DNA of 61,544 nt, taken from assembly GCA_017694255.1 (NCBI GenBank), contig JADINC010000023.1, positions 1 to 61,544 of the forward strand, read 5' to 3'. Below are positions 81 to 36,046 of the stretch, one piece after another; within the stretch, counting starts at the first letter, position 1; each line of letters starts with the position of its first letter. Both the position numbers and the translations under genes were made by a program. Under the pieces are notes generated by a model. The model had not been told where the DNA came from, made no database searches, and saw only the letters and a program-made list of their open reading frames with translations. This stretch comes from Candidatus Enterousia avistercoris (lineage in GTDB: Bacteria; Pseudomonadota; Alphaproteobacteria; Rs-D84).

Positions 81-1079
81 TCATGACATAACGTCCGTCA
101 ACAGCGCGTTCATATTTTCACGAAACTCTTCGCGGTCCGACGCCCAAACAACCTGGCGCATTAAAAACTTATACACATCATCCATTGTCAGATTTGGAAT
201 ACCTGCTGCTGCCACCACGCGCCGCCATGCGACGCGCGGATCAGTTAAATGGCCACGTCCACGACCTGGGAAAACCCATCGTCCATCCTGGGGCAAATCT
301 TGCAGCAACACCACCGCCGCATCAGACAACGGACGCGCACCCCATGTATAGTGGTTAAAATCCAAATCCCGCCACTGCATAGAAAACACCTGGGACTTTG
401 GCGCAAAACCATAGACCAGCATTAAAAACGCCGCACGTAATATCGGGGATGGTTCGCGTTTAATCGCCCGTATTAAACGCTGGAATCCAGATTTATTCAA
501 TGGTCGCACACGACGCGATTGTTCTATTTTGGGCAAATCAATAACTGGATTTTTTTCAACATAACCCATTTCGATTGCATACTTAAAAACACTCTGTACA
601 AATTCCTGCATACGCGCGGCAATCGCCCGGCCACCAATTGCCGCAATTACCGTTTCAACATCTTTTTTGGTTATATCAGACAAATTCATATCCAGCAATT
701 CCGACAAATGGCGCTGGATTGCACGTTCCAATTTATCACGCGAATAACTGCTGCGCCGCACCCGATTCGCCATATATGAATCCAAGAATTTACGCATTGT
801 AATTTTTTTGCGACGCACACGCGGCTTTTGCATCGCGCGCACCAACAATTCTGGCACAGCCCCACGTGCGGTTTCTATATCCATTTCTGGATAGTTTCCA
901 ATAATAATTCGACGATCCCGTCCATGTACACGTTTGCGAACAAAGAATGTTTTTACACCGCGACTAGTTACATACATACGCAGACGCGGTTCTGACAAAT
1001 CTTGGACAACATCAAAGCCCGTTGCCGGCGCTGGCAAATTATCCAAAATAAATGGATTAAAAAAGAATTGATGCGCCAT
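81..1079 (-). CDS. P4-type tyrosine-integrase-like protein (catalytic signature not evident, possibly inactive)
   Basis: ORF 81..1115, with the start trimmed to the ATG at 1079, which follows AGAGGA. The N-terminus (FNPFILDNLPAP..RLRMYVTSRGVKTFFVRKRVHGRDRRIIIGNYPEMDIETAR) resembles the arm-type DNA-binding domain of P4-family integrases. Where the R, HxxR and Y residues are expected, the sequence reads YGFAPKSQVFSMQW and LTMDDVYKFLMRQ. Confidence 0.6.
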   Translation of the reverse strand: MAHQFFFNPFILDNLPAPATGFDVVQDLSEPRLRMYVTSRGVKTFFVRKRVHGRDRRIIIGNYPEMDIETARGAVPELLVRAMQKPRVRRKKITMRKFLDSYMANRVRRSSYSRDKLERAIQRHLSELLDMNLSDITKKDVETVIAAIGGRAIAARMQEFVQSVFKYAIEMGYVEKNPVIDLPKIEQSRRVRPLNKSGFQRLIRAIKREPSPILRAAFLMLVYGFAPKSQVFSMQWRDLDFNHYTWGARPLSDAAVVLLQDLPQDGRWVFPGRGRGHLTDPRVAWRRVVAAAGIPNLTMDDVYKFLMRQVVWASDREEFRENMNALLTDVMS

Positions 1080-1203
1080 TATTTCCTCTTTTTTATTTTT
1101 CGCTATTTTATTCAATACATTACAGCATCCATATATTACCCCAACTGAACAATCACGATACGAGAGTTTTAATAAAAAATCTTTAACTTATCGCCAGTTG
1201 CTA

Positions 1204-4405: not shown

Positions 4406-4981
4406 ATGAAATTCGCAGAATATATACTCAGCAAATCCGAAAGTCGCACATACGCATGGATAGTATTCATATTAACGATATGCGAATCGATATTTTTGTT
4501 TATCCCACCCGAAGTATTCATGACCCCACCAATTATCGCGAACAAGCGTCGCGCAGTTCCAATAACTATTGCGGCGTCATTGGGTTCGATTGTTGGTGGG
4601 ATATTGGCATATATGATTGGTGCATGGCTGTGGGATTCATTGGGTCAATGGATAGTAAACACATTCACCAACCCCGAATTAATTGAAACCGCCATAAAGC
4701 CGATGTTCAGCAAATATGGAATATTAATAATAGTACTGACGGCGGTAACCCCGATACCGTATAAGTTGCTGGCAATATGGTTGGGCTTTATTGGATACCC
4801 ATTGTGGATATTTGTTGGTGTATCTGCGATATTCCGCACTGGGCGCTTTGCGACGATTGCGACCTTGCTGTATTTTTTCCAAGAACGCGCGAACGCCATA
4901 GTCAAGAAATACTTTTGGCCATTAACAATCGGTGCAATTATTGCCGCCGGCCTGGGCGTTGGCTTAATATCACTATTCTAA
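4406..4981 (+). CDS. YqaA/DedA-superfamily inner-membrane protein
   Basis: Polytopic membrane ORF with a YqaA-like N-terminus (SRTYAWIVFILTICESIFLFIPPEVFM) and multiple TM segments. Confidence 0.65.
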   Translation: MKFAEYILSKSESRTYAWIVFILTICESIFLFIPPEVFMTPPIIANKRRAVPITIAASLGSIVGGILAYMIGAWLWDSLGQWIVNTFTNPELIETAIKPMFSKYGILIIVLTAVTPIPYKLLAIWLGFIGYPLWIFVGVSAIFRTGRFATIATLLYFFQERANAIVKKYFWPLTIGAIIAAGLGVGLISLF

Positions 4982-4987
4982 CATTCT

Positions 4988-5006
4988 TGTCATCCCCAGG
5001 ATGACA
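4988..5006 (+). terminator. Hairpin after the yqaA-like gene; also a degenerate copy of the repeat head
   Basis: tgtcatcc-cca-ggatgaca (8-bp stem) lies 7 nt after the stop and is followed by a T-rich tract. Confidence 0.4.
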
Positions 5007-5083
5007 GGTTCTTAATTTCTTTTATTTTGAGATTATTTTTATATTTGTAATTTGTTTAAGAAAAAAGAAAAGTAAGAAAAAAA

Positions 5084-5462
5084 CTTGTCATCCCGTGGCT
5101 TGACCACGGGACCCAGGTAATTAATGCTCTGTGCGCCAGCACAGACAACTTTCCTTGTCATCCCGTGGCCCGGGCCCCGCACTACACAGTTCTCCTTTCT
5201 TGTCATCCCGTGGCTTGACCACGGGACCCAGGTAATTTATGCTCTGTGCGCCAGCACAGACAACTTTCTTGTCATCCCGTGGCCTGACCACGGGACCCAG
5301 GTAATTAATGCTCTGTGCACCAGCACAGACAACTTTCCTTGTCATCCCGTGGCCTGGGCCCCGCGAAAACGTCAGTTTTCGTGGGTGGATGCAGACCACG
5401 GGACCCAGGTAATTTATGCTGTCGCACCGCGACACCACATTTGCACTTTGCACTTTGAAAAA
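5084..5462 (+). repeat. Palindromic repeat array 1 (5 units sharing the head cttgtcatcccgtggc)
   Basis: Heads at 5084, 5154, 5199, 5268 and 5338. The ~70-bp type-1 unit is cttgtcatcccgtggcttgaccacgggacccaggtaattaatgctctgtgcgccagcacagacaactttc. The 45-bp type-2 unit is ...gtggcccgggccccgcactacacagttctcctttc. The last unit carries a nested hairpin insert (cgaaaacgtcagttttcg) and a tail, gtcgcaccgcgacaccacatttgcactttg. Confidence 0.95.
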
Positions 5463-5475
5463 CCGCGACACAAAC

Positions 5476-5784
5476 CTACACCAACATATTCAGTTCATCA
5501 TATAAATCCCGCCAATCTGGATTATATTTTTCTATCAAATCTTTTTTCCAATTTCGTTTCCACTCTTTCAACCGCTTTTCGTGCCGAATAGCCTGCTTAA
5601 CATCTTCAAACCGTTCAAAATATACCAATTTGCAAACCCCATATCGACTGGTAAACCCCGGCGTCAAATGATTTTTATGTTCATATACACGCTGAGCTAA
5701 ATTACTGGTAAAACCTATATACAGTGTACCATTTCTATCACTGGCCAAAATATAAACATAGTAATATTTTTGAATCCCATACAT
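5476..5784 (-). CDS. GIY-YIG nuclease family protein (small stand-alone URI-domain protein)
   Basis: YYVYILASDRNGTLYIGFTSNLAQRVYEHK ... AIRHEKRLKEWKRNWK matches the GIY-YIG / COG2827-type small nuclease pattern. Confidence 0.85.
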   Translation of the reverse strand: MYGIQKYYYVYILASDRNGTLYIGFTSNLAQRVYEHKNHLTPGFTSRYGVCKLVYFERFEDVKQAIRHEKRLKEWKRNWKKDLIEKYNPDWRDLYDELNMLV

Positions 5785-5810
5785 AAAATTTGTATTTGCT
5801 GTCGCAAATA

Positions 5811-5839
5811 AGTATATAAAACCTGGGCCCCGTGGTCAA
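5811..5839 (-). promoter_or_regulatory. Sigma70-like promoter for the GIY-YIG gene, with the -35 inside a repeat unit
   Basis: The minus strand reads TTGACC-N17-TATACT. The -35 lies at 5834..5839 and the -10 at 5811..5816, about 26 nt upstream of the ATG. Confidence 0.4.
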
Positions 5840-5860
5840 GCCACGGGGTGACAAGTTCTT
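5821..5860 (-). repeat. Single inverted copy of the palindromic repeat unit
   Basis: The reverse complement reads cttgtcaccccgtggcttgaccacggggcccaggt. Its orientation is opposite to both arrays. Confidence 0.9.
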
Positions 5861-5960
5861 AAGTTTTTTATATCACAGTTTTGTTTTGTGATTATCAGTT
5901 TACTTTGTGATTGTTTTTCATTTTGTAATTGTTTTTAGAAAAAAGAAAAATAAGGAAAAA

Positions 5961-6382
5961 CTTGTCATCCCGTGGCCCAGGCCCCGCACTACACAGTTCT
6001 CATTTCTTGTCATCCCGTGGCCTGGGCCCTGCGTTCCTTTCCTTGTCATCCCGTGGCTTGACCACGGGACCCAGGTAATTAATGCTCTGTGCGCCAGCAC
6101 AGACAACTTTCCTTGTCATCCCGTGGCCTGGGCCCCGCACTACACAGTTCTCCTTTCTTGTCATCCCGTGGCTTGACCACGGGACCCAGGTAATATCAAT
6201 TACATCCTTTCTTGTCATCCCGTGGCCTGGGCCCCGCGAAAACGTCAGTTTTCGTGGGTGGATGCAGACCACGGGACCCAGGTAATATCAATTACATCCT
6301 TTTTGTCATCCCGTGGCTTGACCACGGGACCCAGGTAATAAAACTTGTCGCGCAGCGACACCACATTTGCACTTTGAAAAAA
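5961..6382 (+). repeat. Palindromic repeat array 2 (7 units of the same family)
   Basis: Heads at 5961, 6006, 6042, 6112, 6157, 6211 and ~6303. It contains the same type-1, type-2 and composite units as array 1. It ends with the same tail, gtcgcgcagcgacaccacatttgcactttgaaaaaa. Confidence 0.95.
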
Positions 6383-6401
6383 GCCCCCACGGATGTGGGG
6401 G
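6376..6401 (-). terminator. Rho-independent terminator of the fibre-gene run
   Basis: cccccac-ggat-gtggggg (7-bp GC stem) is followed on the minus strand by a T-run. It lies 7 nt after the stop of 6408..8324. Confidence 0.8.
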
Positions 6402-6407
6402 AATCAT

Positions 6408-8324
6408 TCATTCTATCCAAATATCTGCATAACCGGTTGGATCGGTCGCACTGCCCACCGAAATCTGCAAGCGTTCCCCTGGAATCTTGCCACTCGAATC
6501 CAACAATTTGTAATTTCCACTATCACCAAACCCAACACTAAGCGTACCTGGATCAAGATTAGTGCCCGTACCTATTTGTATCGCATTCTCTGTGTTTGTA
6601 CTCGCACCAAATCCTAAAGAAATCGAATTGTTACCACCTGCTCCCGCTTCATTACCAACTACAACATTATTCGTCCCCCTAGCAAAAGCTCCCTTTCCAA
6701 TTCCAATAGAGTTTTCTCCAGACACCGCAGAACCCATGCCCAATGCAACACTATTTAGCCCTTCTCCCTTTGCATTTGCGCCCAGCGCAACCGCGCTTTG
6801 AACAACCGAAGCAGAGGCACCAATCGCGGTCCCAGAACGAGTTGCCGTCGCACGTGCACCATAAACAGTTCCACCAGGACCAGTCGTCACAGCATTTGTA
6901 CCAATAATAGTTGCAGACGTATAATCTCCAGCATTACCACCGCCCGTGGCAAACCCCCCCACACCTGTTGCAGTATTCGTCAATACCGTATCCGGCATAC
7001 GTTCATCGGGAATTTTTCCATCATTATCCAACAATTGATAAATTTTATCTGTGCCGAATCCAACATTAAATGTTCCCGCGGTTGAATTTGTCCCTGTTCC
7101 CAACTGTATTGCCCCCAACGCAGTCGATTTTGCATTCTGTCCAATTGCGATCGCAGATCCAGCCCCCGTTTCAGCCCTATAGCCCACTGCCGTTCCATAC
7201 TCAACCGTCGATTTTGCATTTGCACCAATTGCAACCCCTTGACCTGCAACATTAGCATTGGAACCGATTGCCACGGCTTCTTCTTCATTCGCAGATGCAT
7301 TCATTCCAACAGCAACATTCATAAATCCCGTTTCTGATGACTTTGCGGATTGACCAACAACCACAGATGCAACCGACCCACTTGCCGCATCACCGATTAC
7401 AACAGTACTATCCGCCGTAGCAGGCGTTGCCCCACCGGTACTGAGTGAACCTGTCCCCGTTGCGGTGTTTTCTAATTTTTTATCCAATGCGGCTTTGACC
7501 ACTTTATTTTGCACGGGGTTTGTACTGTCGGCGCTTAACGTCGCATCCACGGTTATTTCATCGGGTATTTCGGCCTTGGTCGCGTAAGTATCTGCGATAA
7601 CCCGGCCACTGGCGTCCTGGGTTGCCTTGGTCGCGCTGTCTGCGGTGGTTGCGCTGTTCACGGTTACGGCGCCATCCGCCGCCACCGTAATATCACCCCC
7701 AGATTTCACACCACCCAATGCCGCGGCCGTTGCCGCCGGCAGAGTATATTCTTCTGGCAACGCCGCCGATGTGATAAATCCACTATCATTAGTTAATTCA
7801 CTGGTTTTTGTTGGAACAGTAATATTCGCTGTTGCCGCTGTTGCAGAATTGGCTGTAAAGGTTGCAACCGCCGCTCCATTTTTCTGTATTGTCAATGTTG
7901 CATTATTAACAGTTGGAATATCATCTGCATCAGCCTTGGCATTTAATTCCGTTTTTGTGGCATAAGTCGTTGTAATAACATTACCAGACGCATCCTGGGT
8001 TGCCTTGGTCGCAGATGTTGCACTGGTTGCCGTATCTGCTGTTTCAGCGGCGGCAACTTTATCTATTTTTGTTGCAACACCACTGGCATTCACATAAATC
8101 GGATGTGTCGCATCCCCAACCGCGGTCCCGGCGGTGGCAACTTCTACTGCTGTACTTGCATTTTGCTTTGCATTTAATTCAGTTTTCGTTGCATAATCAC
8201 CCGCCGGCGCACGTGTGTCAATCTGCTGATCAACATAGCCCTGGGATGCAATATTTGCATATGCGCCCCCCACCACCATCATAGCTATAAATGAAACTGC
8301 GAAAATGCCCTTTGACTTTATCAT
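6408..8324 (-). CDS. Secreted fibrous repeat protein, paralog D (tail-fibre-like motifs plus YadA-head-like repeats)
   Basis: Signal peptide MIKSKGIFAVSFIAMMVVGGAYA. Contains IASQGYVD, two copies of ATKATQDASG(N/R)VI..TYATK, LTIQKNG...VPTKTSELTNDSGFIT and NPVQNKVVKAALDKK. The C-terminal half is two tandem modules of (A/S)(V/I)A(I/L)G.NA-type repeats, each ending AIQ(L/I)GTGTN..VGFG..LLD..GKIP.ER. Confidence 0.8.
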   Translation of the reverse strand: MIKSKGIFAVSFIAMMVVGGAYANIASQGYVDQQIDTRAPAGDYATKTELNAKQNASTAVEVATAGTAVGDATHPIYVNASGVATKIDKVAAAETADTATSATSATKATQDASGNVITTTYATKTELNAKADADDIPTVNNATLTIQKNGAAVATFTANSATAATANITVPTKTSELTNDSGFITSAALPEEYTLPAATAAALGGVKSGGDITVAADGAVTVNSATTADSATKATQDASGRVIADTYATKAEIPDEITVDATLSADSTNPVQNKVVKAALDKKLENTATGTGSLSTGGATPATADSTVVIGDAASGSVASVVVGQSAKSSETGFMNVAVGMNASANEEEAVAIGSNANVAGQGVAIGANAKSTVEYGTAVGYRAETGAGSAIAIGQNAKSTALGAIQLGTGTNSTAGTFNVGFGTDKIYQLLDNDGKIPDERMPDTVLTNTATGVGGFATGGGNAGDYTSATIIGTNAVTTGPGGTVYGARATATRSGTAIGASASVVQSAVALGANAKGEGLNSVALGMGSAVSGENSIGIGKGAFARGTNNVVVGNEAGAGGNNSISLGFGASTNTENAIQIGTGTNLDPGTLSVGFGDSGNYKLLDSSGKIPGERLQISVGSATDPTGYADIWIE

Positions 8325-8439
8325 ATCCGTATTCTACCTAAAAAAACTGTTTCGTTCCACTGTTCGTTTATCGCAATCTGTTTTTTTTACCTGTGTGCGG
8401 TGCACATTTTAACACCGCACACATATTGTTACGCCGTTA

Positions 8440-9891
8440 TTATTCGGCACCACCACGTGCGATAACTTCCCAAGAATAGTTACCCGCACCGGACGATACC
8501 AATACGCATTTGTTTTCGGAATCCGCACAAGCATCTGTTGGTGCCGGAATTGCTGCATTGGCGGTTGCCTGCGCTGCATCCGCGGCTTCCTGGGCGGCAT
8601 CTGCTGCATCTTGCGCCGCACCTGCAGCAGTGTTTGCACCGTCAGCGGTTGTCTTTACTTCATTGATAGCCCCAACAACTGTCTTGTTTGTTGTTGCCAA
8701 AGAGTTATCTGTTTTATCCTGTTTCAATGCCAGGTTTGCATCAGTCGCCATACCGGCAATTTCTTCCTTGGTGGCATATGTCGTTGTGATTACATTACCA
8801 GATGCGTCCGCCGTTGCACGTGCCGCTGTGGCATCTGAATCCAACTTGCCGGCCAAACCACTTGTCAAGGCAGTCGTTGTTGCAAATTCAGACGCATTAT
8901 GTGTGACGATGTCACCATAACCACCAATTGTTGACTCTACCGCGTCAACAGCACTTTGTGCACCGGTTGCCGTGCTCTGTGCAGCGGCGGCCTCGCCCGC
9001 TACTTCCTTGATAGCGGTCACAACTGTTGTCGCTGTTGTACCCATGTTTTCTGCTGAAACAGCGCCAACCTGACCTTCCAACGTCTTTGCAGCGTATGCC
9101 GCATTGGCATCGGTCTCGGTCACATAATCGTCCAAATCAGCCTGTTGCAACGCAGTATCGGCTTTGTCCAAAGATGCATTAATTGATGCATTCAGATCAC
9201 CTTCTGCAATCGTCCCATCAGTTATATCAGCACTGGTTACTGTACTTTTGGTCGCCAAAGTACCCAAACCAGAAACCTGAGTATTCGCAATTGTCGCAGC
9301 GGATGTAATATTACCAGTGCCATCTGTTGTTACGATATGGTTTGCTGCCTCTGCCCCCATATTTTTATCTTGCTTGTCTGTTTGCAATTCGGCAATGTCG
9401 GCTTCGGCTGCGTCCAAATCACTTTGAATTTGTTCCACAGTGTCGCTTGATGCAATATTTTCCGTCGCAGCAGTAATTGCGGTATTTACCGCCGCCGCAG
9501 ATGGATATTTTGTATCGTCTGTCTTGCCGGTGGCCCAACCCGCGGTATTAACCATATTTGTCTTTACCTGCATATCGGAAATCGCAGCCGGCTGAACCGC
9601 TGTATCTGCTTTTGTCCCCTGGGCTGCGGTTGCAAATTCAGATGCATTATGCGTCACAACATCGCCATAGGTTTCCATTGTACCCTGGATAGTGTCAATT
9701 TCGCCCTCGGCCGCTTCAACACGGCCATCTAACGCAGTAACGGTTGTGGTATCTGCCTTGGCCCCAATTGCAGATGTCAATGCCTTATTAATATCATCAA
9801 CATAGCCCTTGGACGCGATTTCTGCATGTGCGGCCCCGGTTGCCACCACGGCCAGCAAAGATGCAAATATACCTGCGGTTAATTTTTTCAT
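8440..9891 (-). CDS. Secreted fibrous repeat protein, paralog C
   Basis: Signal peptide MKKLTAGIFASLLAVVATGAAHA. Contains EIASKGYVD, two copies of YGD(V/I)VTHNASEFAT, ARATADASGNVITTTYATK and VVGAINEV. The C-terminus reads C-x6-C-VLVSSGAGNYSWEVI. Confidence 0.8.
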   Translation of the reverse strand: MKKLTAGIFASLLAVVATGAAHAEIASKGYVDDINKALTSAIGAKADTTTVTALDGRVEAAEGEIDTIQGTMETYGDVVTHNASEFATAAQGTKADTAVQPAAISDMQVKTNMVNTAGWATGKTDDTKYPSAAAVNTAITAATENIASSDTVEQIQSDLDAAEADIAELQTDKQDKNMGAEAANHIVTTDGTGNITSAATIANTQVSGLGTLATKSTVTSADITDGTIAEGDLNASINASLDKADTALQQADLDDYVTETDANAAYAAKTLEGQVGAVSAENMGTTATTVVTAIKEVAGEAAAAQSTATGAQSAVDAVESTIGGYGDIVTHNASEFATTTALTSGLAGKLDSDATAARATADASGNVITTTYATKEEIAGMATDANLALKQDKTDNSLATTNKTVVGAINEVKTTADGANTAAGAAQDAADAAQEAADAAQATANAAIPAPTDACADSENKCVLVSSGAGNYSWEVIARGGAE

Positions 9892-9954
9892 TTTTCTTTC
9901 CTTTCTTTGTTTTGTTGTTTTTTTATTTTTCTATTTTCCAATCCGTTTTCGACC

Positions 9955-12207
9955 TTAATCAGCAGGCGCCGTAACATTCGTCCACGCCAACTGCCCACCT
10001 GGCGTTATGGTCAACACACACAGCCCCGATTCCGCCATACAGTCATCATCTGGCTGGGGAACGGCCAACGTAGTAATTTGGTTGTCTGTTTCCGTTTTCG
10101 TGTATGTATCTGCTTTGTCCGCCTTGTTATTAACCTGGGTTTGCATTTGCGAAACCTGGTTACTGATCGCTTGGAAATTACCCTCGGTCGCCAGACCAGA
10201 TGTTTTTTCATTAACTTCGTTAATCGCATCTACCAGGTTCTGGGCCGAAACGGTCAAACTTTCCATAGTACCAATATCTGATTCTGCCGACGACACACGC
10301 GTTTCCAACGCATTTACATCGTCTGTATCTGCCTTGGCCCCCAGTGCGTTATATACCGCCAACGCCGATGGATATTGGGTATTTTGGGCCGTGGCATTAA
10401 TTTCACTAACCCGCGCCGATACATCTTGTTTCTTGTTCAAAGCCGATTCCGCTGTTGAAACGCGTTCGGTTAAACCTGAAATGCCCGATGTATTGGTGGC
10501 GACATTGGCGCTTAAATCATTTACAGATTTCACCAATCCCGATTCCGCGTTACCAACCGTTGTTGTTAATGCGCCAATACCCGATTCATTCGTATCCACA
10601 CGTTCTGTCAATGTTGCCAGATCGTCCGTGGCGTCATTCACGGCACCAAAGACCTCGTTCACGGCACCAACCAGGTTTGTTTTCTCGCCCGTGGCCAGGT
10701 TACCAACCGTGCCAATTGCGGCCGCATTTGTATCAACACGCCCGGTTAATGTGCTTAAATCTTTTTGGATTTGTTGCACCGTGCCATCGGCCGCCATGCC
10801 GCCAATCGCCTTATCCAGTTCATTAATCGCACCAACCAAATTATCTTTATTTTCCGTGGTCAATTCAGATTTTGCGCCGATATCTGTCAGTGCCTGTTGC
10901 GCGTGTGTGGCCGCGTTATTTGCAACGGTTTCTGTTGACTTAGGTGCATATGTTTTGTCCGCCACATCCTTGGTCAACATGTCCGCAGTCGCCGTGTCAA
11001 CATACGATTCGGTTGCATAGCCGGTTAATGCATCGCTGTCCAATTTGCCCGCCAAGCCAGATTCCAAAGCCGCAGTTGTGGCATATCCAGATAAAGAATC
11101 CGTCGTCGCGTATCCCGCTAATGATTCCTTGGTCGCGTATGTTCCTGCCACTTCTGCCGTCTTGGCATAGCCCGCCAAATCCGCTGACGTTAACATCCCA
11201 GAAATATCTGCATCTGTGGCATAGCCATCCAATTCGCCCTTGGTCGCGTATGTATCCGCCGCACTTTCCGTGGTTAAATAATCACCCAACGATTCGGTTG
11301 TTGCGTATTTAGATAACTCGCTGGCGTCGGCCTTGCCCGCTAATGATTCCTTGGTCGCGTATGTATCCGCCGCACTTTCCGTGGTTAAATAACCACCCAA
11401 CGATTCGGTTGTTGCATATTTAGATAACTCGCTGGCGTCAGCCTTGTTTGCCATTTGCCCCTGCAGGGTTGTTATATTACCCGCGTTCGTATCAACACGA
11501 CCGGACAATGTTTCAACCGCACTTTGTACCTGACTAGCCGTGGTTTGCGCCGCTTCGGCTGTTTGTTTTGCGGCACTGGCATCCCCGGCTGCTGTTGTTG
11601 CTGCGGCGGCGGCACTGGCTACATCAGCAACCAATCCATCTGAGTCATCACCAACGACCGTCTCTAATGCACCAACCGCCGTTCCCAATTCTTCCACATC
11701 AGACGTCGATGCTTTACCCGCCAATTCTGTTTTCGTTGCGTATGTTGTACCTGCCTCGGTCTTGGTCAACATATCACTTGTTGCGGCTGCAATATCGCCA
11801 TCTGTGGCATAGCCGTCCAATTCGCCCTTGGTCGCGTATGTATCCGTAATAACATTACCTGCCGCGTCCGCGGTTGCACGCGCCGCCGTGTCGCCCGTTC
11901 CCAACTTGCCCGCCAAACCCATGGTCACAGATTCCTGGGTGGCATACGTTTTTTTGGCGTCATCTTTGGTTAAATAATTTTCCAAATCTGCGCCAACGCC
12001 TTCGGACACAATTTGCTCTATACGTCCATCCAGACCATCAACCTGCTCGTCAACATATGTTTTGTCCGCCTTTTGGTCCAATGCTTCTTTGGTTGCGTAT
12101 GTTCTGTTACCATAATCCGTAGTAACCAACGTCGCCGCATTGGCCGCGCCGGCACTTAACAAAATCGCCGCCATAAACCCAGAAAAACGTACATTTCTTT
12201 TTTTCAT
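9955..12207 (-). CDS. Secreted fibrous repeat protein, paralog B
   Basis: Signal peptide ...AAILLSAGAANA. Contains ARATADAAGNVITDTYATK, three copies of NLV(G/D)A(I/V)NE(L/V), an internal 37-aa tandem duplication and QYPSALAV. The C-terminus reads C-x6-C-VLTITPGGQLAWTNV. Confidence 0.8.
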   Translation of the reverse strand: MKKRNVRFSGFMAAILLSAGAANAATLVTTDYGNRTYATKEALDQKADKTYVDEQVDGLDGRIEQIVSEGVGADLENYLTKDDAKKTYATQESVTMGLAGKLGTGDTAARATADAAGNVITDTYATKGELDGYATDGDIAAATSDMLTKTEAGTTYATKTELAGKASTSDVEELGTAVGALETVVGDDSDGLVADVASAAAAATTAAGDASAAKQTAEAAQTTASQVQSAVETLSGRVDTNAGNITTLQGQMANKADASELSKYATTESLGGYLTTESAADTYATKESLAGKADASELSKYATTESLGDYLTTESAADTYATKGELDGYATDADISGMLTSADLAGYAKTAEVAGTYATKESLAGYATTDSLSGYATTAALESGLAGKLDSDALTGYATESYVDTATADMLTKDVADKTYAPKSTETVANNAATHAQQALTDIGAKSELTTENKDNLVGAINELDKAIGGMAADGTVQQIQKDLSTLTGRVDTNAAAIGTVGNLATGEKTNLVGAVNEVFGAVNDATDDLATLTERVDTNESGIGALTTTVGNAESGLVKSVNDLSANVATNTSGISGLTERVSTAESALNKKQDVSARVSEINATAQNTQYPSALAVYNALGAKADTDDVNALETRVSSAESDIGTMESLTVSAQNLVDAINEVNEKTSGLATEGNFQAISNQVSQMQTQVNNKADKADTYTKTETDNQITTLAVPQPDDDCMAESGLCVLTITPGGQLAWTNVTAPAD
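11241..11447. repeat. Near-perfect in-frame tandem duplication (period 111 bp) inside paralog B
   Basis: tggtcgcgtatgtatccgccgcactttccgtggttaaata... starts at 11241 and again at 11352. It encodes SELSKYATTESLG(G/D)YLTTESAADTYATK... twice. Confidence 0.9.
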
Positions 12208-12229
12208 GTCCTTAATCCTAAAAAATCAA

Positions 12230-13948
12230 TTACAGCGCAACATCATACCACATCGTAGCACCAGATCCATCCGTGCCCAGAACCTTGTTATTTCCTGCCC
12301 CTGTGGTCGTCACCATACCTGAAATTTCCGTCTTGGTCGCGTATGTAGTGGCAATATTATTACCCGCCGCATCCGCAGTTGCCCGTGGCGCCGTGCCGTC
12401 TGTTGTGTTAACGTACGTTGTGGACGCCTCTGTCTTGGTCAGCATATCCGCCGTCGCGGTCTGCAAGGCTGTAATATTTGTTTCGTTCGTCGCCACACGC
12501 GATGTCAAACCATCCGCCGCAGACTGCGCCGCTTCGGCTGCTTTTTGCGCTGCCTCTGCCCCGGCAACCGCCGTTGCAATTTTACCAGCCAAACTGGTCA
12601 GACCATTTTCTTCATCATTCACGACCGAATCTAACGCCGCCACATCATCAGAGACTTCCGTCAATTGTGCGGACGTTGCATAACCCGCCAATGCCGTCGT
12701 AACCGCCGACGTAGACGGATAATCCGTATCGCTGTTTGTTAACGTTGTCTTTTTATTTGCCACATCTTCCTTGCCGGTCAACGCCTCTCCCATATCGCCC
12801 GCGACAATATCTGCAACCTTTGAATCAACTTCACCCTTGGTATATGCATCAGTAATACCATATCCCGCCAGCGTTGTTGACTTGTCAGCCTTTTTCGCCA
12901 ATTCCTCATTCACATATTGCGTATTTGCTTTGGCTGCAACTTCCCGTTCTAATTCATCTACATCTGCCTTGACCGCGTATGTATCCGTAATAACATTACC
13001 CGCCGCATCAGCTGTTGCCCGTGGCGCTGTGCCATCTGTTGTGTTAACGTACGTTGTGGATGCTTCGGTCTTGGTCAAATAAGAATCCAATTCGACACCC
13101 GCCAAATCGCCGACCATACCTTCGACTTCTTCCCTTGTGGGGTAATTTGCCAAATCGCCCGATGTAACCATATCAGCGGTCGCCGTGGTTAATTCATCCT
13201 TGGTAGCATAGGTATCCGCAACATCTGCGACTGCATCCGCAATTGCAGCATTCATATCTTCCAGTGATACATATCCATCACCCACGATATCATCAACCGC
13301 GATAATTGTCGTCTTGTCGCCATTACAATCACGAACGATATTTCCACCTTCGACAATAAAATCACAGCCCGCACCCAATTCATAGCGCAATTCGTCAACA
13401 TCAACCAAAATTTCGTTATTTTCAATTGATACGAAATTATTACCAGTGGTCAAAACATCTTGCTTTGTATCAACCGCGCCCTGTAAACCTTCGACATCGC
13501 GCAGCAACACATCAATCTGTTCCCGCAAACCTTCCAGTGTACCGGTATCAATTTCGCCACCAGACGAACCGCCACCCGAAACGGACGAACCACTACCCGG
13601 GTTTTGCGGACGCAACGAACTGCCCCCACTGACAGATGTACCGCCACCCAAATAATGACCAATCGACAAACGTGGTGATGTTGCCACCCGCCCAGACGTT
13701 GTTGAACCCGCACTAATTGAAGCACTGGATCCCGACTGGTTTGATGTCGGTGTTACCCGAACCGATCCACCGCGCACAGATGTTGCTGCACGCGCCCCAG
13801 AATTCGCCGAAGACGCACTGGCAGCACTGGAATATGTACCACTGCCCCCCAAGTTGCGCACTGACGATGCCGCATGCGCGCCAGAAACCATCCCAGCGCA
13901 CAAAACACAAACAATTGTTAATGTTGATATTTTCAGTTCTTTTTTCAC
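12230..13948 (-). CDS. Secreted fibrous repeat protein, paralog A
   Basis: GTG start. Signal peptide ...VCVLCAGMVSGAHA, followed by a Ser/Gly-rich tract. Contains two copies of TKTEASTTYVNTTDGTAPRATADAAGN(V/N)I..TYA(V/T)K, TLAGYGITDAYTKGEVD and DYPSTSAV. The C-terminus reads NKVLGTDGSGATMWYDVAL. Confidence 0.8.
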   Translation of the reverse strand: MKKELKISTLTIVCVLCAGMVSGAHAASSVRNLGGSGTYSSAASASSANSGARAATSVRGGSVRVTPTSNQSGSSASISAGSTTSGRVATSPRLSIGHYLGGGTSVSGGSSLRPQNPGSGSSVSGGGSSGGEIDTGTLEGLREQIDVLLRDVEGLQGAVDTKQDVLTTGNNFVSIENNEILVDVDELRYELGAGCDFIVEGGNIVRDCNGDKTTIIAVDDIVGDGYVSLEDMNAAIADAVADVADTYATKDELTTATADMVTSGDLANYPTREEVEGMVGDLAGVELDSYLTKTEASTTYVNTTDGTAPRATADAAGNVITDTYAVKADVDELEREVAAKANTQYVNEELAKKADKSTTLAGYGITDAYTKGEVDSKVADIVAGDMGEALTGKEDVANKKTTLTNSDTDYPSTSAVTTALAGYATSAQLTEVSDDVAALDSVVNDEENGLTSLAGKIATAVAGAEAAQKAAEAAQSAADGLTSRVATNETNITALQTATADMLTKTEASTTYVNTTDGTAPRATADAAGNNIATTYATKTEISGMVTTTGAGNNKVLGTDGSGATMWYDVAL

Positions 13949-24983: not shown

Positions 24984-26102
24984 CTACATACGCATCGGCA
25001 TTAAAACAAACAATGCATCAGTATTTTTATCTGTCGATTTTATAATCGTGGGCGATAATGGGTCCTGCATTTCCATCTGGAATTTTTCGCCTTCGACCTG
25101 GGATGCAACATCCATCAAGAATTTAACATTAAATACAACGGTAAATGCACTGTCGCCATTGTATTCTATGTCTAATTCCTGGGTTGCCGTCCCTGCATCT
25201 GGACTGGACGCATTCACCACCAATTTATTCATAGAAAAAGTTAACTGGACCGACTTTGTTTTATCGACACTGGCCACAGATACCAAATCCACCGCATTCA
25301 AAAATTGTTTTCTGTCCAAAACCGCGATTTTATCATTACCCTTTGGTATAACGACGCGATAATTCGGATATTGTGCATCAACCAATTTACTGGTCAACGT
25401 CGCCGCCCCCACGGTAAAGCGCGCCTTGGTATCAGACAATTCAACCGTTACATCATCAACCGTCGCATCTTCTAGCAATTTAGACAATTCACCAATCACA
25501 CGACGTGGCAAAATAACAGACGGCATTTCCACACTGCCCACTGGGGCCGGCATTGCACACAACGCCATACGCTGGGCATCTGTTGCGACCGCCGTCAGCA
25601 TTTTTTCTTTATCTTCATCAGATATATGGAAATAGATACCCCCCAAATGATATCGAACGTCATCTGTTGGAATTGCAAATTTAGTCTGGTTAATCAAATG
25701 TGCCAAATCACCAGTAGTCATCTGGAACTTAGTAGTTAAATTGCTGCCCGCCATGGCCGGGAAATTTTCTGCCGGCAACGTCGGCAACCGAAATACTGCG
25801 CGCCCACTGGATACAACCAATTGATCACCCGCCTGTTTAAAGCTGATTTCTGCATCATCAGGCAATTTACGAACAATATCATACAACATCTGGACCGGCA
25901 CAGTTGTTTTTCCGCCCAGTGTAATATCTGCCGCGACATGTTCTACTAATTCCAAATCTACATTTGTCGCAGATAATATTAAATCATCTGCCACTTCCAA
26001 TTTTACATTCATCAATATCGGCAACGTCGCGCGTTTTTCCACAATAGACTGCATATGTCCCAGCGCACGAATCAAAACCTGACGAAACACCGAAAATTCC
26101 AT
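24984..26102 (-). CDS. dnaN: DNA polymerase III beta sliding clamp
   Basis: 372 aa. N-terminus MEFSV.R..L...L...Q..VEKR.TLPIL.NV and C-terminal MPMRM are typical of DnaN. Confidence 0.95.
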   Translation of the reverse strand: MEFSVFRQVLIRALGHMQSIVEKRATLPILMNVKLEVADDLILSATNVDLELVEHVAADITLGGKTTVPVQMLYDIVRKLPDDAEISFKQAGDQLVVSSGRAVFRLPTLPAENFPAMAGSNLTTKFQMTTGDLAHLINQTKFAIPTDDVRYHLGGIYFHISDEDKEKMLTAVATDAQRMALCAMPAPVGSVEMPSVILPRRVIGELSKLLEDATVDDVTVELSDTKARFTVGAATLTSKLVDAQYPNYRVVIPKGNDKIAVLDRKQFLNAVDLVSVASVDKTKSVQLTFSMNKLVVNASSPDAGTATQELDIEYNGDSAFTVVFNVKFLMDVASQVEGEKFQMEMQDPLSPTIIKSTDKNTDALFVLMPMRM

Positions 26103-30663: not shown

Positions 30664-32088
30664 ATGAATATTCAATTTTCTGATTTGATTGAAAATAGTC
30701 CCAACGCCCCCGGTGTATACAAGATGTACGACGCCGATGGCACACTGTTATATGTTGGCAAGGCTAAAAATTTATCCAATCGATTAAAACAATATCTGGA
30801 CATATCCAAACTGGAACCGCACAAGCAAGTAATGCGCACAATGGTTGCGCGTGTTGATTGGGAAACGACCCCAACCGAATCAGACGCATTAATTCTGGAA
30901 CAGCATTTAATCAAAACCCAAAAGCCCAGATATAATATCATGCTGACAGATGGGAAAATGTACCCAATGATTGCATTAACCCAATCAGAATACCCGCGCC
31001 TGTTAAAATTCCGGGGCAAGATAACACAACGCCGTGATGTATATGGCCCATACCCGTCGGTCGCCGCATTAAACGAAACAATAAAAACAATTCAAAAGGT
31101 ATGTCGCCTGCGCACATGCACTGATACATTTATGCGCAATCGGTCGCGTCCATGCCTGCTGTACCAAATCGGCCGGTGCAGTGCGCCGTGCACAATACCA
31201 CAAACAGACTATGGCGAAAATGTTGCATTGGCGCGTCGAATTTTAACTGGCGACAGCGAACCGATAATTGCGGACTTAACCCGGCAAATGCAAAAGTTTT
31301 CCGATGCAATGGACTATGAATCTGCCGCCACCATACGCGACAAAATCGCAGCATTAACCCAAACATCAAATCGCGGTATACGCCAGAATCGTGCACATAG
31401 CGCGAATTTTGATTGGACTGGTGCGGTTAATGATTTAGAAAATTTAACCGGCATAAAATTAAATTGTGTTGGCGTATTTGATAATTCACATCTGTTTGGC
31501 AAAAGTCCTGTTGGCGCAATGATAACATTTGGTCCAAACGGTTTTATAAAAACAGGATACAGGCATTTCAAATTACGCGATGCGGCCCGTGCCGGCAATG
31601 ATATTGCCATGATGGCAGAATTTGTCCAACGTGCAACTATGCGTGGTCCAAAGCTGGATTTAATAATTGTTGATGGGGGCCCGGCCCAATGGAACATTGC
31701 CCATAAAACCGCCCCAGACATTCCAACTTTTGGCGTAACCAAAGGCGTTGTCCGCGATGGGGATGAACACTTTATTTTACCAGACGGCACCATATGCCGT
31801 GATATACCAAAAGATTCACGCTTGTTTTTATTATTGCGCGCTGTCCGCGACGAAGCACATCGTTTTGTAATCACATTCCACCGCACTGTGCGCGCGAAAC
31901 AGATGACATCATCCGTACTGGACGAAATCGATGGCATCGGTCCAACACGCAAACGCGCATTGTTAAATCACTTTGGTTCTGTTCGCGCGATTGCGGACGC
32001 CAACCTGGACGCATTAAAACGCGTACCTGGCCTGGGCAATTCGGCCGCCGAAAAAATTTATGCCCATTTTCACACAGAAGTGATATAA
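30664..32088 (+). CDS. uvrC: Excinuclease ABC subunit C (compact, 474 aa)
   Basis: GIY-YIG N-terminus (PGVYKMYDADGTLLYVGKAKNLSNRLKQY), a UVR motif region, an RNase-H-like endonuclease domain (DEAHRF) and a C-terminal (HhH)2 (IDGIGPTRKRALL..VPGLG). Confidence 0.9.
   Translation: MNIQFSDLIENSPNAPGVYKMYDADGTLLYVGKAKNLSNRLKQYLDISKLEPHKQVMRTMVARVDWETTPTESDALILEQHLIKTQKPRYNIMLTDGKMYPMIALTQSEYPRLLKFRGKITQRRDVYGPYPSVAALNETIKTIQKVCRLRTCTDTFMRNRSRPCLLYQIGRCSAPCTIPQTDYGENVALARRILTGDSEPIIADLTRQMQKFSDAMDYESAATIRDKIAALTQTSNRGIRQNRAHSANFDWTGAVNDLENLTGIKLNCVGVFDNSHLFGKSPVGAMITFGPNGFIKTGYRHFKLRDAARAGNDIAMMAEFVQRATMRGPKLDLIIVDGGPAQWNIAHKTAPDIPTFGVTKGVVRDGDEHFILPDGTICRDIPKDSRLFLLLRAVRDEAHRFVITFHRTVRAKQMTSSVLDEIDGIGPTRKRALLNHFGSVRAIADANLDALKRVPGLGNSAAEKIYAHFHTEVI
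31392..31404 (-). repeat. Exact copy of the 13-nt motif CGCGCTATGTGCA (inside uvrC)
   Basis: The plus strand reads tgcacatagcgcg. See the finding on the over-represented motif. Confidence 0.95.
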
Positions 32089-34066: not shown

Positions 34067-36046
34067 ATGGTTGAACAAAATACACATACATATGACGCAT
34101 CAGATATCCAGGTCCTAGAAGGCTTGGAACCCGTTCGTCTGCGTCCAGGGATGTATATTGGCGGCACTGATGAGAAGGCATGGCATCACCTGCCGGTGGA
34201 AATATTGGACAATTCTATTGATGAAGCGGTCGCCGGCTTTGCCAAAAAAATTATTGTAAATTTAATTGATTCAAAAACCATTGAAATAACCGATGACGGA
34301 CGCGGCATTCCAGTTGACGAACATCCAAAGTACCCCGGAAAATCGGCATTAGAGGTTATATTAACCACCCTGCATTCTGGGGGCAAATTTAATAATAATG
34401 TATATAAAACCAGTGGCGGTCTGCACGGCGTGGGCAGTTCGGTTGTAAATGCCCTGTCGTCTGAAATGATTGTTGTTATTTCGCGCGATGGTTATGAATG
34501 GCGCCAGACATTTTCCCGCGGGAAACCAACCAGTCCAATGACCCGTGGCGACGCAACAAAAAACCACGGCACAAAAATCAGATTTACAATTGATGACGAA
34601 ATATTTGGCGCAAACGCGGTATTCAAGCCGGTCAAGATTTATCGTATGGCACGCGCAAAATCATTTTTATCCCGTGGGGTGCGCGTTGAATGGATATGCA
34701 ATCCTGAATTAATTACCGAAGATATGAACATCCCGGCGCGAACCGAATTTTATTATCCAAACGGGGTGGCAGATTTTCTGGAAGAAAAGACACGCGACAA
34801 ACCACGCATTTTACCAAAAATATTCAGTGGCACGGTTGATTTTCCTGATGATTCTGGTCGCGTGGAATGGGCATTAACATTTTTAACTGATGAAAACGGT
34901 GCGGCATCTGATGACGGATTCTTTTCATCATACTGTAATACAATTGCGACAATCGATGGCGGGACACATGAAACCGGATTTAAATCTGCAATAACCCGCG
35001 GGATAAAGGCATACGGCGAAAAAGTAAACAATAAATCCGCCGCCACAATTATCAGCGATGATGTATTTGATTCCGTTGCGGCAATTGTATCGGTATTTTA
35101 TAAAACACCGCAATTTTTGGGTCAAACCAAAGAAAAACTGTCTAATCCAGAAATTGCGCGCTATACCGAAAACGCGTTGCGTGATCCATGGGAAATATTC
35201 CTGGCGTCCGATCCAAAAACTGCGAACGCCGTGCTAGATTTTGTTGCAAATTTAGCGGCGGCCCGCATCAAAACAAAGCAAGTCAAAGAAATCGCGCGTA
35301 AGACCCCAACAAAACGTGTACGCATGCCGGCAAAACTGGCGGACTGCTCTAAACACGGCATCGACGGCACAGAATTGTTTATAGTAGAGGGGGAATCCGC
35401 CGGCGGCACTGCAAAACAGGCACGCGACCGCGCGACCCAGGCAATTATGCCCCTGCGTGGCAAGGTATTAAATGTTGTATCTAATTCCGACGAACGTTTC
35501 AGTGCGAACAAAGAATTAAATGAACTAATTGATATTATTGGCGCGGGAACCGCCCGGGATTGGGATGAAAATAAATTACGCTATGAAAAAATAATTGTTA
35601 TGACCGATGCCGACGTCGACGGCAGCCACATTGCATCACTGCTGATGGCATTCTTTTACCAGGTTATGCCCCAGCTAATATACGGTGGCCATCTGTATCT
35701 GTCGTGCCCACCACTGTATAAATTAACATGCGGGACCGAATCGGTTTATGTCGACACTGATGAAGAACTAGAAGAATTAAAGAACACAAAATACAAAAAT
35801 AAAAAGCTTGAAATATCCCGGTTCAAGGGACTGGGCGAAATGATGCCGAACCAGTTAAAGGAAACAACCATGTCGCCAAAAACACGGCGATTGATACGGG
35901 TTGACCTGCCCCCACGCACGGACGAAGGGGCCGAAGACACCGAAAAAACCCGCACAATTGTATCTGAACTGATGGGTAAAAAGCCTGAATTCCGATTTAA
36001 ATTCATCACAGAACACGCCCAATTTGTCAAAGACTTGTTCGTATAA
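34067..36046 (+). CDS. parE: Type IIA topoisomerase ATPase subunit, ParE-length (topoisomerase IV subunit B)
   Basis: LEGLEPVRLRPGMYIGGTDE, GHKL ATPase motifs, EGESAGG, a Toprim domain and PLYK. It is 659 aa, without the long GyrB insertion or tail. Confidence 0.75.
   Translation: MVEQNTHTYDASDIQVLEGLEPVRLRPGMYIGGTDEKAWHHLPVEILDNSIDEAVAGFAKKIIVNLIDSKTIEITDDGRGIPVDEHPKYPGKSALEVILTTLHSGGKFNNNVYKTSGGLHGVGSSVVNALSSEMIVVISRDGYEWRQTFSRGKPTSPMTRGDATKNHGTKIRFTIDDEIFGANAVFKPVKIYRMARAKSFLSRGVRVEWICNPELITEDMNIPARTEFYYPNGVADFLEEKTRDKPRILPKIFSGTVDFPDDSGRVEWALTFLTDENGAASDDGFFSSYCNTIATIDGGTHETGFKSAITRGIKAYGEKVNNKSAATIISDDVFDSVAAIVSVFYKTPQFLGQTKEKLSNPEIARYTENALRDPWEIFLASDPKTANAVLDFVANLAAARIKTKQVKEIARKTPTKRVRMPAKLADCSKHGIDGTELFIVEGESAGGTAKQARDRATQAIMPLRGKVLNVVSNSDERFSANKELNELIDIIGAGTARDWDENKLRYEKIIVMTDADVDGSHIASLLMAFFYQVMPQLIYGGHLYLSCPPLYKLTCGTESVYVDTDEELEELKNTKYKNKKLEISRFKGLGEMMPNQLKETTMSPKTRRLIRVDLPPRTDEGAEDTEKTRTIVSELMGKKPEFRFKFITEHAQFVKDLFV

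What the first reader, a model, noticed from the sequence alone, without database searches (positions are those of the whole stretch)
5476..5860. GIY-YIG nuclease gene bracketed by oppositely oriented repeat units: a possible REPtron-like partnership with a non-RAYT enzyme
The only gene inside the repeat hotspot is a 102-aa stand-alone GIY-YIG nuclease. Its 3' side is met by the last unit of array 1 in plus orientation. Its 5' side has a single unit in the opposite orientation (5821..5860), so the gene is flanked by inverted copies. That is the arrangement described for REP sequences around their RAYT (IS200/IS605-type) transposases. No RAYT or other transposase lies nearby. My hypothesis is that this GIY-YIG protein recognises or cleaves the hairpin units and disseminates or maintains them. 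As far as I know, that enzyme/repeat pairing has not been described.
Basis: inference. Interest (0 to 1): 0.7.

Follow-up and report, generated by a model that had tools for sequence, protein, structure and literature searches.

The report
Ssn nuclease gene with hairpin repeats
This small nuclease gene, bracketed by inverted hairpin repeats, is a new example from an uncultured gut bacterium of the Ssn system published in 2025, so the pairing is real but not new.

Summary
Window 5476-5784(-) encodes a 102-aa single-domain GIY-YIG protein. It sits in the only repeat hotspot of the 61-kb window. One hairpin unit lies in gene orientation 37 nt upstream (5821-5855). All other units lie in the opposite orientation.

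The bracket is not chance. In 29 of 35 closely related loci the gene has the same layout: one unit upstream in gene orientation and one unit downstream inverted. In 29 of 44 distant homologues from many phyla the gene has its own inverted GTCA-stem-loop-stem-CCAG hairpins.

The claim that the pairing is undescribed is wrong. Chenal et al. 2025 (Nat Commun 16:2388, PMC11893778) described the Ssn family: roughly 94-aa GIY-YIG enzymes that bind such hairpins (NTS/SRM) as single-stranded DNA and cut just upstream. Those authors already drew the comparison with REP/RAYT and insertion sequences.

The window protein is 58% identical to the gonococcal SsnA orthologue, and the catalytic residues align. 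No RAYT is present.

New details here:
- The repeat variant is missed by the published search pattern.
- The hairpin loop supplies the promoter -35.
- The cassette copies have sharp borders.
- The cassette is inverted between species.
- The repeat arrays vary greatly between strains, next to a length-variable surface-protein gene.

Whether the nuclease spreads the repeats is still unproven.

The parts
5476..5784 (-). ssn gene: 102-aa single-domain GIY-YIG nuclease of the Ssn family
   Evidence: ORF. Pfam PF01541 at E 7.8e-16. 58% identical, ungapped over 86 aa, to the N. gonorrhoeae SsnA orthologue. Y11, Y22 and E69 align with the published catalytic residues Y6, Y17 and E64.
5821..5855 (-). 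Upstream hairpin unit (SRM) in gene orientation. It carries a compensatory T:A to C:G change at the base of the stem.
   Evidence: (I2-I6). As ssDNA it folds with an 8-bp stem and a 5-nt loop, -11.2 kcal/mol, z -3.15.
5811..5839 (-). Predicted sigma-70 promoter of ssn: -35 TTGACC (the hairpin loop), 17-nt spacer, -10 TATACT
   Evidence: Best promoter-like site in 4900-6500, 10 of 12 matches. The same loop-TTGACC / 16-18 nt (17 nt in 25 of 27) / TAnnnT layout occurs in 27 of 35 related loci. Prediction only.
5338..5413 (+). Downstream proximal unit, inverted relative to the gene. Composite: a 42-nt nested hairpin sits in its loop.
   Evidence: (D6). Folds at -21 kcal/mol, z -4.26. In other strains a simple unit occupies this position.
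5084..5337 (+). Array 1: three complete units (5086-5116, 5201-5231, 5270-5300), one truncated head (5156) and interspersed small hairpin modules (CTGTGC-GCCA-GCACAG)
5961..6336 (+). Array 2: three complete units (6044-6074, 6159-6189, 6304-6334), one composite unit (6213-6283) and three truncated heads (5963, 6008, 6114)
4986..5008 (.). Palindrome made of two unit heads fused (CTTGTCATCC-CC-AGGATGACAGG), directly after the stop of the VTT-domain gene
   Evidence: The AT-rich stretch after it (5021-5082) is 82% identical to 5899-5960 (D10).

Best explanation
This is an Ssn/SRM locus of the kind described by Chenal et al. 2025.

**The enzyme and its expression.** The 102-aa protein is a single-domain GIY-YIG endonuclease of the Ssn family. 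It is probably transcribed from a promoter whose -35 hexamer is the loop of the upstream hairpin unit (prediction).

**Mechanism, inferred from four assayed homologues.**
- The enzyme recognises the unit only as single-stranded DNA and only on the strand that reads GTCA-stem-loop-stem-CCCAGG.
- Here the hairpin has an 8-bp stem TCCCGTGG/CCACGGGA and a loop CTTGA.
- The enzyme nicks a few nucleotides 5' of the motif.

**Likely consequences in the cell (inference).**
- Single-stranded DNA carrying these arrays would be cut. Such DNA arises from incoming transforming or conjugative DNA, or from replication and repair intermediates.
- Cutting would alter recombination across this region, which lies next to a length-variable surface-protein gene.

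**Behaviour of the cassette.** The unit-ssn-unit cassette acts as a discrete module that has been duplicated, inverted and relocated during evolution. Within each of the two species examined it sits at one fixed site.

**Shown here:** family membership, the flanking architecture and its conservation, hairpin potential, array variability, and the cassette borders.

**Inferred:** the nuclease activity and specificity of this particular protein, promoter use, and the cellular role.
For: **Family membership.**
- PF01541 is the only domain.
- tblastn finds the N. gonorrhoeae chromosome at E 1e-25.
- BLASTP gives 58% identity, ungapped, with Y11/Y22/E69 aligned to Y6/Y17/E64 of a 94-aa ORF that matches the paper's numbering.

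**Architecture.**
- 29 of 35 close loci have a gene-oriented unit upstream and an inverted unit downstream.
- 29 of 44 distant homologues score at least 16 for flanking inverted repeats, against shuffle maxima of 9-12. Several of these repeats match the Neisseria NTS consensus closely; L062 matches it at every position but the last.
- 100 flanking hairpins with 27 different perfect stems share a GTCA 5' flank (87 of 100) and a yCCAG 3' flank (69 of 100).

**Hairpin potential.** ssDNA folds have z-scores of -3.1 to -4.3.

**Published biochemistry and genetics for homologues.** PMC11893778.

**Dynamics.**
- The repeat-filled intergenic regions measure 300-878 nt downstream and 364-854 nt upstream in 13 contigs of the same species, while the gene and its two proximal units stay fixed.
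- The neighbouring YadA-like protein ranges from 518 to 691 aa.
Against: - The published degenerate SRM search pattern gives 0 hits in the window. The unit matches only after three relaxations.
- CDD cd10448 membership could not be tested.
- No activity data exist for this protein.
- Within the 61-kb window the units occur only at this one hotspot. The hundreds of genome-wide copies typical of Neisseria are therefore not demonstrated for this organism.
- The cellular role shown in Neisseria (modulating transformation) need not apply here.
Confidence: 0.85

Rival explanations
1. The unit-ssn-unit cassette is an active, selfish, insertion-sequence-like element. The GIY-YIG nuclease cuts just outside both terminal hairpins. 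The freed cassette, or single units, are then copied elsewhere, which generates the arrays and the dispersed copies. It is not exclusive of the best explanation.
For: - Two pairs of paralogous copies, each pair from contigs binned in one MAG, share homology that starts and stops within a few nt of the outer GTCA heads: about 95% identity over about 444 bp for L012/L015, lower for L008/L010.
- An identical 107-aa protein, with about 99% identical DNA, lies in two unrelated gene contexts. The homology ends at unit heads.
- Different species carry the cassette at different loci, VTT/YadA versus downstream of rplI.
- The cassette is inverted at one orthologous site.
- The same unit is dispersed without a nearby ssn, often as inverted doublets, in 24 of 26 metagenome loci.
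- The published cut site, a few nt 5' of the motif, falls just outside each cassette end on opposite strands (inference).
Against: - The position is fixed in all strain contigs of two species.
- There is one copy in 61 kb.
- No target-site duplication is seen.
- A GIY-YIG nuclease cuts but is not known to perform strand transfer, so host functions would be required.
- The borders could also arise from recombination at the repeats.
- Two contigs of one MAG may come from different strains.
Confidence: 0.3
2. The units are ordinary REP elements served by a RAYT (Y1 transposase) encoded elsewhere in the genome. The GIY-YIG gene is a bystander that happens to lie in a REP cluster.
For: - The arrays look like BIMEs.
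- The whole genome was not available, so a distant RAYT cannot be excluded.
Against: - No Y1_Tnp domain was found in 55 window ORFs.
- E. coli RayT gives no credible tblastn or phmmer hit in 774 kb of window plus loci. The only hit is a weak one in a distant Flavobacteriales locus.
- The bracket travels with the GIY-YIG gene across phyla, and the stems differ from lineage to lineage.
- Homologues bind and cut these hairpins directly (PMC11893778).
Confidence: 0.04
3. The protein is a housekeeping repair nuclease of the UPF0213/YhbQ or Cho-like kind. The flanking hairpins are only its promoter and terminator.
For: - Weak similarity to UPF0213 structures 1zg2 and 1ywl (E 1e-5 and 1e-3).
- The upstream unit does contain a promoter-like site.
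- The small COG2827 nuclease genes of Caulobacter crescentus (three copies, one behind an SOS box) were once proposed as repair genes (PMC1839093).
Against: - The same hairpin occurs in arrays and dispersed copies far from any ssn gene.
- The downstream unit has no T-run.
- Similarity to SsnA (58%, E 2e-36) far exceeds that to UPF0213.
Confidence: 0.05

Closest known systems
Ssn nucleases with NTS/SRM hairpin repeats (SsnA of Neisseria meningitidis, NMB0047; Chenal et al. 2025, PMC11893778)
   Same: - Single-domain GIY-YIG protein of about 100 aa, 58% identical to the gonococcal orthologue, with the catalytic residues aligned.
- The gene is bracketed by inverted hairpin repeats with a GTCA 5' flank and a CCAG 3' flank.
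- Repeats cluster next to a surface-protein gene.
   Different: - The host is an uncultured gut alphaproteobacterium near Candidatus Enterousia.
- The unit has an 8-bp stem and a CTTGA loop and is missed by the published SRM search pattern.
- The loop doubles as the -35 of the ssn promoter.
- Units in the window are confined to one hotspot.
- No biochemical data exist for this protein.
REPtron: REP/BIME sequences with their RAYT (IS200/IS605-type Y1 transposase)
   Same: - A small gene is bracketed by inverted copies of a hairpin repeat.
- The repeat also forms mosaic arrays and dispersed doublets.
- The enzyme recognises the hairpin on single-stranded DNA.
   Different: - The enzyme is a GIY-YIG nuclease, not an HUH/Y1 transposase.
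- No covalent strand-transfer chemistry is known for this fold.
Neisseria dRS3 repeats and intergenic mosaic elements (NIMEs)
   Same: Arrays of short hairpin repeats interleaved with other small modules in intergenic regions near variable surface-protein genes. The NTS contains dRS3.
   Different: Different stem and loop sequence. No evidence here for use as a phage integration site.
GIY-YIG homing endonucleases (I-TevI, phage Seg proteins)
   Same: GIY-YIG catalytic fold and a link to mobility of their own gene.
   Different: Homing enzymes carry a separate DNA-binding domain, cut double-stranded DNA, and reside in introns or phage genomes. This protein consists of the catalytic domain only. 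No phage record matched it.
UPF0213 / YhbQ-type small GIY-YIG proteins (PDB 1zg2, 1ywl)
   Same: Similar size, single GIY-YIG domain.
   Different: Only weak similarity (E 1e-5). Not known to be repeat-associated.

Membership tests
Ssn nuclease family (Chenal et al. 2025) | Single-domain GIY-YIG protein of about 94-100 aa | tested here: met
   102 aa. PF01541 over residues 7-81; the only other hit is the related T5orf172 model over the same stretch, so there is no second domain.
Ssn nuclease family (Chenal et al. 2025) | Homology to Neisseria SsnA (the paper's criterion is E < 1e-10) | tested here: met
   The N. gonorrhoeae orthologue served as proxy for Nm SsnA. It is a 94-aa ORF at L127:1489-1773 whose Y6/Y17/E64 match the paper's numbering. 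tblastn E 1e-25. BLASTP 58% identity, E 2e-36. In this strain the ORF starts with ATT.
Ssn nuclease family (Chenal et al. 2025) | Catalytic tyrosines and the metal-binding glutamate (Y6, Y17, E64 in Nm SsnA) | tested here: met
   Y11, Y22 and E69 align without gaps. The residues mutated in the paper are listed.
Ssn nuclease family (Chenal et al. 2025) | [quoted passage not shown] | not testable with these tools
   No CDD library is available. NCBIfam has no specific model; the only hit is a weak one to TIGR01453.
Ssn nuclease family (Chenal et al. 2025) | Gene flanked on both sides by its hairpin repeat in inverted orientation | tested here: met
   Window. 29 of 35 related loci. Distant homologues.
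Ssn nuclease family (Chenal et al. 2025) | Repeat matches the published SRM search sequence HGTCWYN(0-2)YYVSBRHN(0-5)WNVSBRGN(0-2)RNCYNB | tested here: not met
   0 strict hits in the window. After three relaxations (two positions set to N, loop allowed up to 7 nt) there are 7 hits against 0.24 in shuffles. Sister loci with CCGGGG or CCTGGGG stems do pass the strict pattern. The pattern is a search heuristic, not a definition.
Ssn nuclease family (Chenal et al. 2025) | Repeat forms a hairpin as single-stranded DNA, with conserved non-palindromic flanks that give it an orientation | tested here: met
   folds; GTCA and CCAG flanks; 27 distinct stems.
Ssn nuclease family (Chenal et al. 2025) | Site-specific cleavage of ssDNA only, on one strand of the repeat | not testable with these tools
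   Needs purified protein. Shown for four homologues in PMC11893778.
Ssn nuclease family (Chenal et al. 2025) | Many repeat copies across the genome | tested here: inconclusive
   The window holds 9 complete units (two of them composite) and 4 truncated heads, all at one hotspot in 61 kb. The same unit is dispersed on other metagenome contigs. The full genome was not available.
REPtron (REP + RAYT) | Enzyme is an HUH/Y1 tyrosine transposase of the IS200/IS605 type | tested here: not met
   The bracketed gene is GIY-YIG. No Y1_Tnp in 55 window ORFs. No credible RayT homologue in 774 kb.
REPtron (REP + RAYT) | Gene bracketed by inverted hairpin repeats that also occur in arrays | tested here: met
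   This is a resemblance in layout only.
Insertion sequence | Terminal inverted repeats, a recognised transposase, target-site duplication, and several near-identical copies | tested here: inconclusive
   Inverted ends and sharply bounded copies are present. No known transposase fold, no target-site duplication seen, and at most two copies per MAG.
GIY-YIG homing endonuclease | Extra DNA-binding domain; location in an intron or phage | tested here: not met
   Catalytic domain only. No phage match.

The most novel reading that the evidence does not exclude
The unit-ssn-unit cassette may be a working mobile element of a new mechanistic type. In this reading a GIY-YIG single-strand nuclease cuts just outside each terminal hairpin on opposite strands. 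The released cassette, or gene-less hairpin pairs, are then re-inserted or copied by host functions. This seeds the arrays and the dispersed doublets. It would be a GIY-YIG counterpart of the REP/RAYT system. The hairpin loop would also serve as the element's own promoter.
Probability: 0.3. Interest if true: 0.65.

Novelty: new member of a known kind. Interest (0 to 1): 0.3.

Why it matters
- **Reach of the family.** The locus extends the recently discovered Ssn/hairpin-repeat system to uncultured gut Alphaproteobacteria.
- **Undercounting.** The published repeat search pattern misses this variant, so surveys based on it undercount the system.
- **Material for the open question.** The 2025 paper left open whether these cassettes are domesticated or still mobile, and whether they drive variation of neighbouring surface-protein genes. 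The strain and species comparisons here bear on that: a fixed gene, hypervariable arrays, an inverted cassette and sharply bounded copies.
- **A candidate tool.** Each new enzyme/repeat pair is a possible site-specific ssDNA-cutting reagent with its own specificity.

Tried and rejected
- **Literature searches with no relevant result:** 'GIY-YIG' with 'repetitive extragenic palindromic' (0 papers), with 'RAYT', and with 'miniature inverted-repeat'.
- **COG2827** led only to a 2007 Caulobacter repair survey.
- **What found the key paper:** searching the literature for the repeat sequence itself.
- **Supplements:** none of that paper's supplementary files are held, so the Nm SsnA sequence could not be read directly. 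The gonococcal orthologue was recovered instead from a chromosome filed among plasmids.
- **Rfam:** no family at gathering score. Below it there were only chance plant-miRNA and sRNA matches to the hairpins.
- **PDB:** no Ssn structure, only weak UPF0213 and SLX1 matches.
- **NCBIfam:** no specific model.
- **Phage collection:** no match.
- **Published SRM pattern:** 0 hits in the window.
- **RAYT search with E. coli RayT:** nothing credible.
- **GC skew:** negative across the whole window with no switch. The replication-strand argument therefore rests on one locus, and I did not pursue it.
- **Empty-site comparisons** could not be made, because only GIY-YIG proteins could be used for context look-ups.

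Full report
**What is in the window**

The ORF at 5476-5784 on the minus strand encodes 102 aa. Its only domain is GIY-YIG (PF01541, E 7.8e-16).

It lies between two blocks of short repeats. The repeat unit is CTTGTCATCCCGTGGCTTGACCACGGGACCCAGGT.
- The head motif occurs 16 times at up to 2 mismatches, against 1.35 expected.
- The tail motif occurs 9 times, against 0.06 expected.
- All but one doubtful head match lie between 4985 and 6340.
- Every unit reads on the + strand except the one at 5821-5855. That unit sits 37 nt upstream of the start codon and is 91-94% complementary to the array units.

As single-stranded DNA the unit folds into an 8-bp stem with a 5-nt loop (z about -3.1 to -3.3).

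The unit nearest the 3' end of the gene (5338-5413) is composite, with a 42-nt nested hairpin in its loop. Four other 'units' are truncated heads.

The neighbouring genes are lepA, a GNAT acetyltransferase, rbfA and a VTT/DedA-type membrane protein on one side. On the other side is a YadA-like surface protein, followed by three more large ORFs that have no Pfam match.

Pfam scans of 55 window ORFs found no RAYT and no transposase.

**Is the bracket more than chance?**

A scan of one genome per species returned 80 loci encoding relatives. The closest are MAGs of Candidatus Enterousia and other gut Alphaproteobacteria.
- In 29 of 35 close loci there is a unit in gene orientation within 120 nt upstream and an inverted unit within 130 nt downstream. 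Two of the six exceptions are cut off by contig ends. The opposite orientations occur only three times on each side.
- Among 44 more distant homologues with usable flanks, 29 carry a flanking inverted repeat scoring at least 16, against shuffle maxima of 9-12. These come from Firmicutes, Saccharibacteria and other Patescibacteria, Bacteroidota, Spirochaetes, Chloroflexi, Gamma- and Betaproteobacteria, and many Alphaproteobacteria. The repeat is always of the form GTCAyyCC-stem-loop-stem-GGrAyCCAG.
- Across 100 such flanking hairpins there are 27 different perfect stems. The 5' GTCA flank is kept in 87 of them and the 3' yCCAG flank in 69.

**It is already described**

Searching the literature for the repeat sequence itself found Chenal et al., Nat Commun 2025 (PMC11893778). 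That paper makes the following points.
- It defines the Ssn family: single-domain GIY-YIG proteins of about 94 aa (CDD cd10448).
- The genes are flanked by hairpin repeats, called NTS in Neisseria and SRM in general.
- SsnA from N. meningitidis and three homologues bind the repeat only as single-stranded DNA and only on one strand. They cut a few nucleotides upstream.
- In N. meningitidis this lowers the integration of transforming DNA that carries the repeats.
- 42% of homologues are flanked on both sides.
- The Discussion compares NTS-ssnA-NTS with insertion sequences and with REP/RAYT/BIME.

**Membership tests**

- A N. gonorrhoeae chromosome filed among plasmids gave the SsnA orthologue. 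It is a 94-aa ORF in which Y6, Y17 and E64 fall exactly where the paper places the residues it mutated.
- The window protein is 58% identical to it, without gaps, over 86 residues (E 2e-36). Y11, Y22 and E69 align to those residues.
- The literal published SRM search pattern finds nothing in the window. With those three relaxations it finds 7 units, against 0.24 in shuffles.
- Sister loci with other stems do pass the strict pattern.
- I therefore file this as a member of the family with a repeat variant outside the published search heuristic.
- CDD assignment and enzymatic activity could not be tested.

**Details that add to the published picture**

1. **Promoter in the hairpin.** The best promoter-like site in 4900-6500 uses the hairpin loop TTGACC as -35 and TATACT, 17 nt on, as -10. 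The same layout recurs in 27 of 35 clade loci. The paper does not mention this.
2. **Fixed gene, variable arrays.** In 13 contigs of the same species, where the protein is 99-100% identical, the gene and its two proximal units are fixed between the VTT gene and the YadA-like gene.
   - The repeat-filled intergenic regions vary from 300 to 878 nt downstream of ssn and from 364 to 854 nt upstream.
   - The unit orders differ between contigs.
   - The YadA-like protein varies from 518 to 691 aa.
   - A second species keeps ssn fixed downstream of rpsF-rpsR-rplI, again beside length-variable genes.
3. **Inversion.** At the orthologous VTT site the cassette has one orientation in the window, L008 and L017. 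It has the opposite orientation in L003, L009, L019 and L024. Inversion between its inverted ends would produce this.
4. **Sharp borders.**
   - Two pairs of copies, each pair from one MAG, share homology that begins and ends within a few nt of the outer GTCA heads.
   - An identical protein lies in two unrelated contexts, with about 99% DNA identity that ends at unit heads.
   - No target-site duplication is visible.
5. **Dispersed units.** The same unit occurs on other metagenome contigs, mostly as inverted doublets, with no ssn in 24 of 26 loci.

**How it most likely works**

The best-supported reading (confidence 0.85 for family and mechanism class) is an Ssn nuclease with its cognate hairpin.
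- The enzyme binds the GTCA-strand hairpin on single-stranded DNA and nicks just 5' of it.
- Its targets in the cell would be any single-stranded form of these arrays.
- The likely outcome is altered recombination around the adjacent surface-protein gene, as proposed for Neisseria.
- The window also encodes DprA and a secretin/TcpQ pair. This is compatible with DNA uptake but does not show it.

The dissemination idea remains a live but unproven addition (about 0.3). The published cut position would fall just outside each cassette end on opposite strands, which fits the sharp borders. However, the gene does not move among strains, and recombination at the repeats could give the same borders.

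A hidden RAYT (0.04) and a plain repair nuclease (0.05) are poorly supported.

**Verdict**

The finding is a new member of a known kind and of modest interest.

Noticed in passing
window 5338-5413 and 6211-6286; also L002, L013, L032 flanks: Some hairpin units carry a second, nested hairpin inserted in their loop. In the window it is the 42-nt CCTGGGCCCCGCGAAAACGTCAGTTTTCGTGGGTGGATGCAG. Related nested hairpins (CCCGCAAAAA...TTTTTGTGGG) sit in unit loops of other species, so the loop may be a recurrent insertion point for another small element.
   Followed up: partly
window 4986-5008 and 5021-5082 versus 5899-5960: Directly after the VTT gene stop, two unit heads are fused into a 10-bp-stem palindrome, like a cassette with its interior removed. 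The AT-rich stretch that follows is 82% identical to the one beyond the upstream unit of ssn. This suggests an old segmental duplication of about 875 nt (D6 and D10).
   Followed up: no
L101-L126 (JGI metagenome contigs): The identical unit is dispersed along large contigs of other organisms. It occurs mostly as inverted doublets 39-105 nt apart, 13 in (-,+) order and 5 in (+,-) order. 24 of the 26 loci contain no ssn homologue. The doublets resemble REPINs or MITEs.
   Followed up: partly
window 6408-13948 (-): Four consecutive large ORFs (638, 483, 750 and 572 aa) have almost no Pfam signal. The first has a weak YadA-head repeat, shares internal repeats with the second (D7), and ranges from 518 to 691 aa among strains of the same species. 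This looks like a variable surface-protein cluster next to the repeat arrays.
   Followed up: partly
window 81-1115 (-): This ORF has a phage-integrase central domain and an Arm DNA-binding domain but no catalytic-domain hit. It lies about 4.4 kb from the ssn gene and may be a remnant of an integrated element.
   Followed up: no
window 39845-40861 (-) and 43292-45970 (-): DprA (DNA processing protein A) and a secretin plus TcpQ-like pair are encoded in the window. dnaA (38229-39623), dnaN (24984-26102) and gyrB (34067-36046) are also present. This is relevant because Ssn acts on transforming ssDNA in Neisseria.
   Followed up: no
window, whole length: GC skew is negative throughout, so the + strand has lagging-strand composition. 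All array units read GTCA on the + strand. On that reading the strand exposed as lagging-strand template would carry only the non-cleavable complement, except at the single unit upstream of ssn. This rests on one locus only.
   Followed up: no
L127:1489-1773 (N. gonorrhoeae NZ_CP119142.1): The gonococcal ssnA reading frame that matches the published 94-aa numbering begins with ATT, not a standard start codon. The nearby ATG is out of frame. The record is a 2.17-Mb chromosome labelled as a plasmid in PLSDB.
   Followed up: no
window 30664-32088 (+): A full-length UvrC, the other GIY-YIG protein of the window, lies 25 kb away with no hairpin units around it. The repeat association is therefore specific to the small Ssn-type paralogue.
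   Followed up: yes
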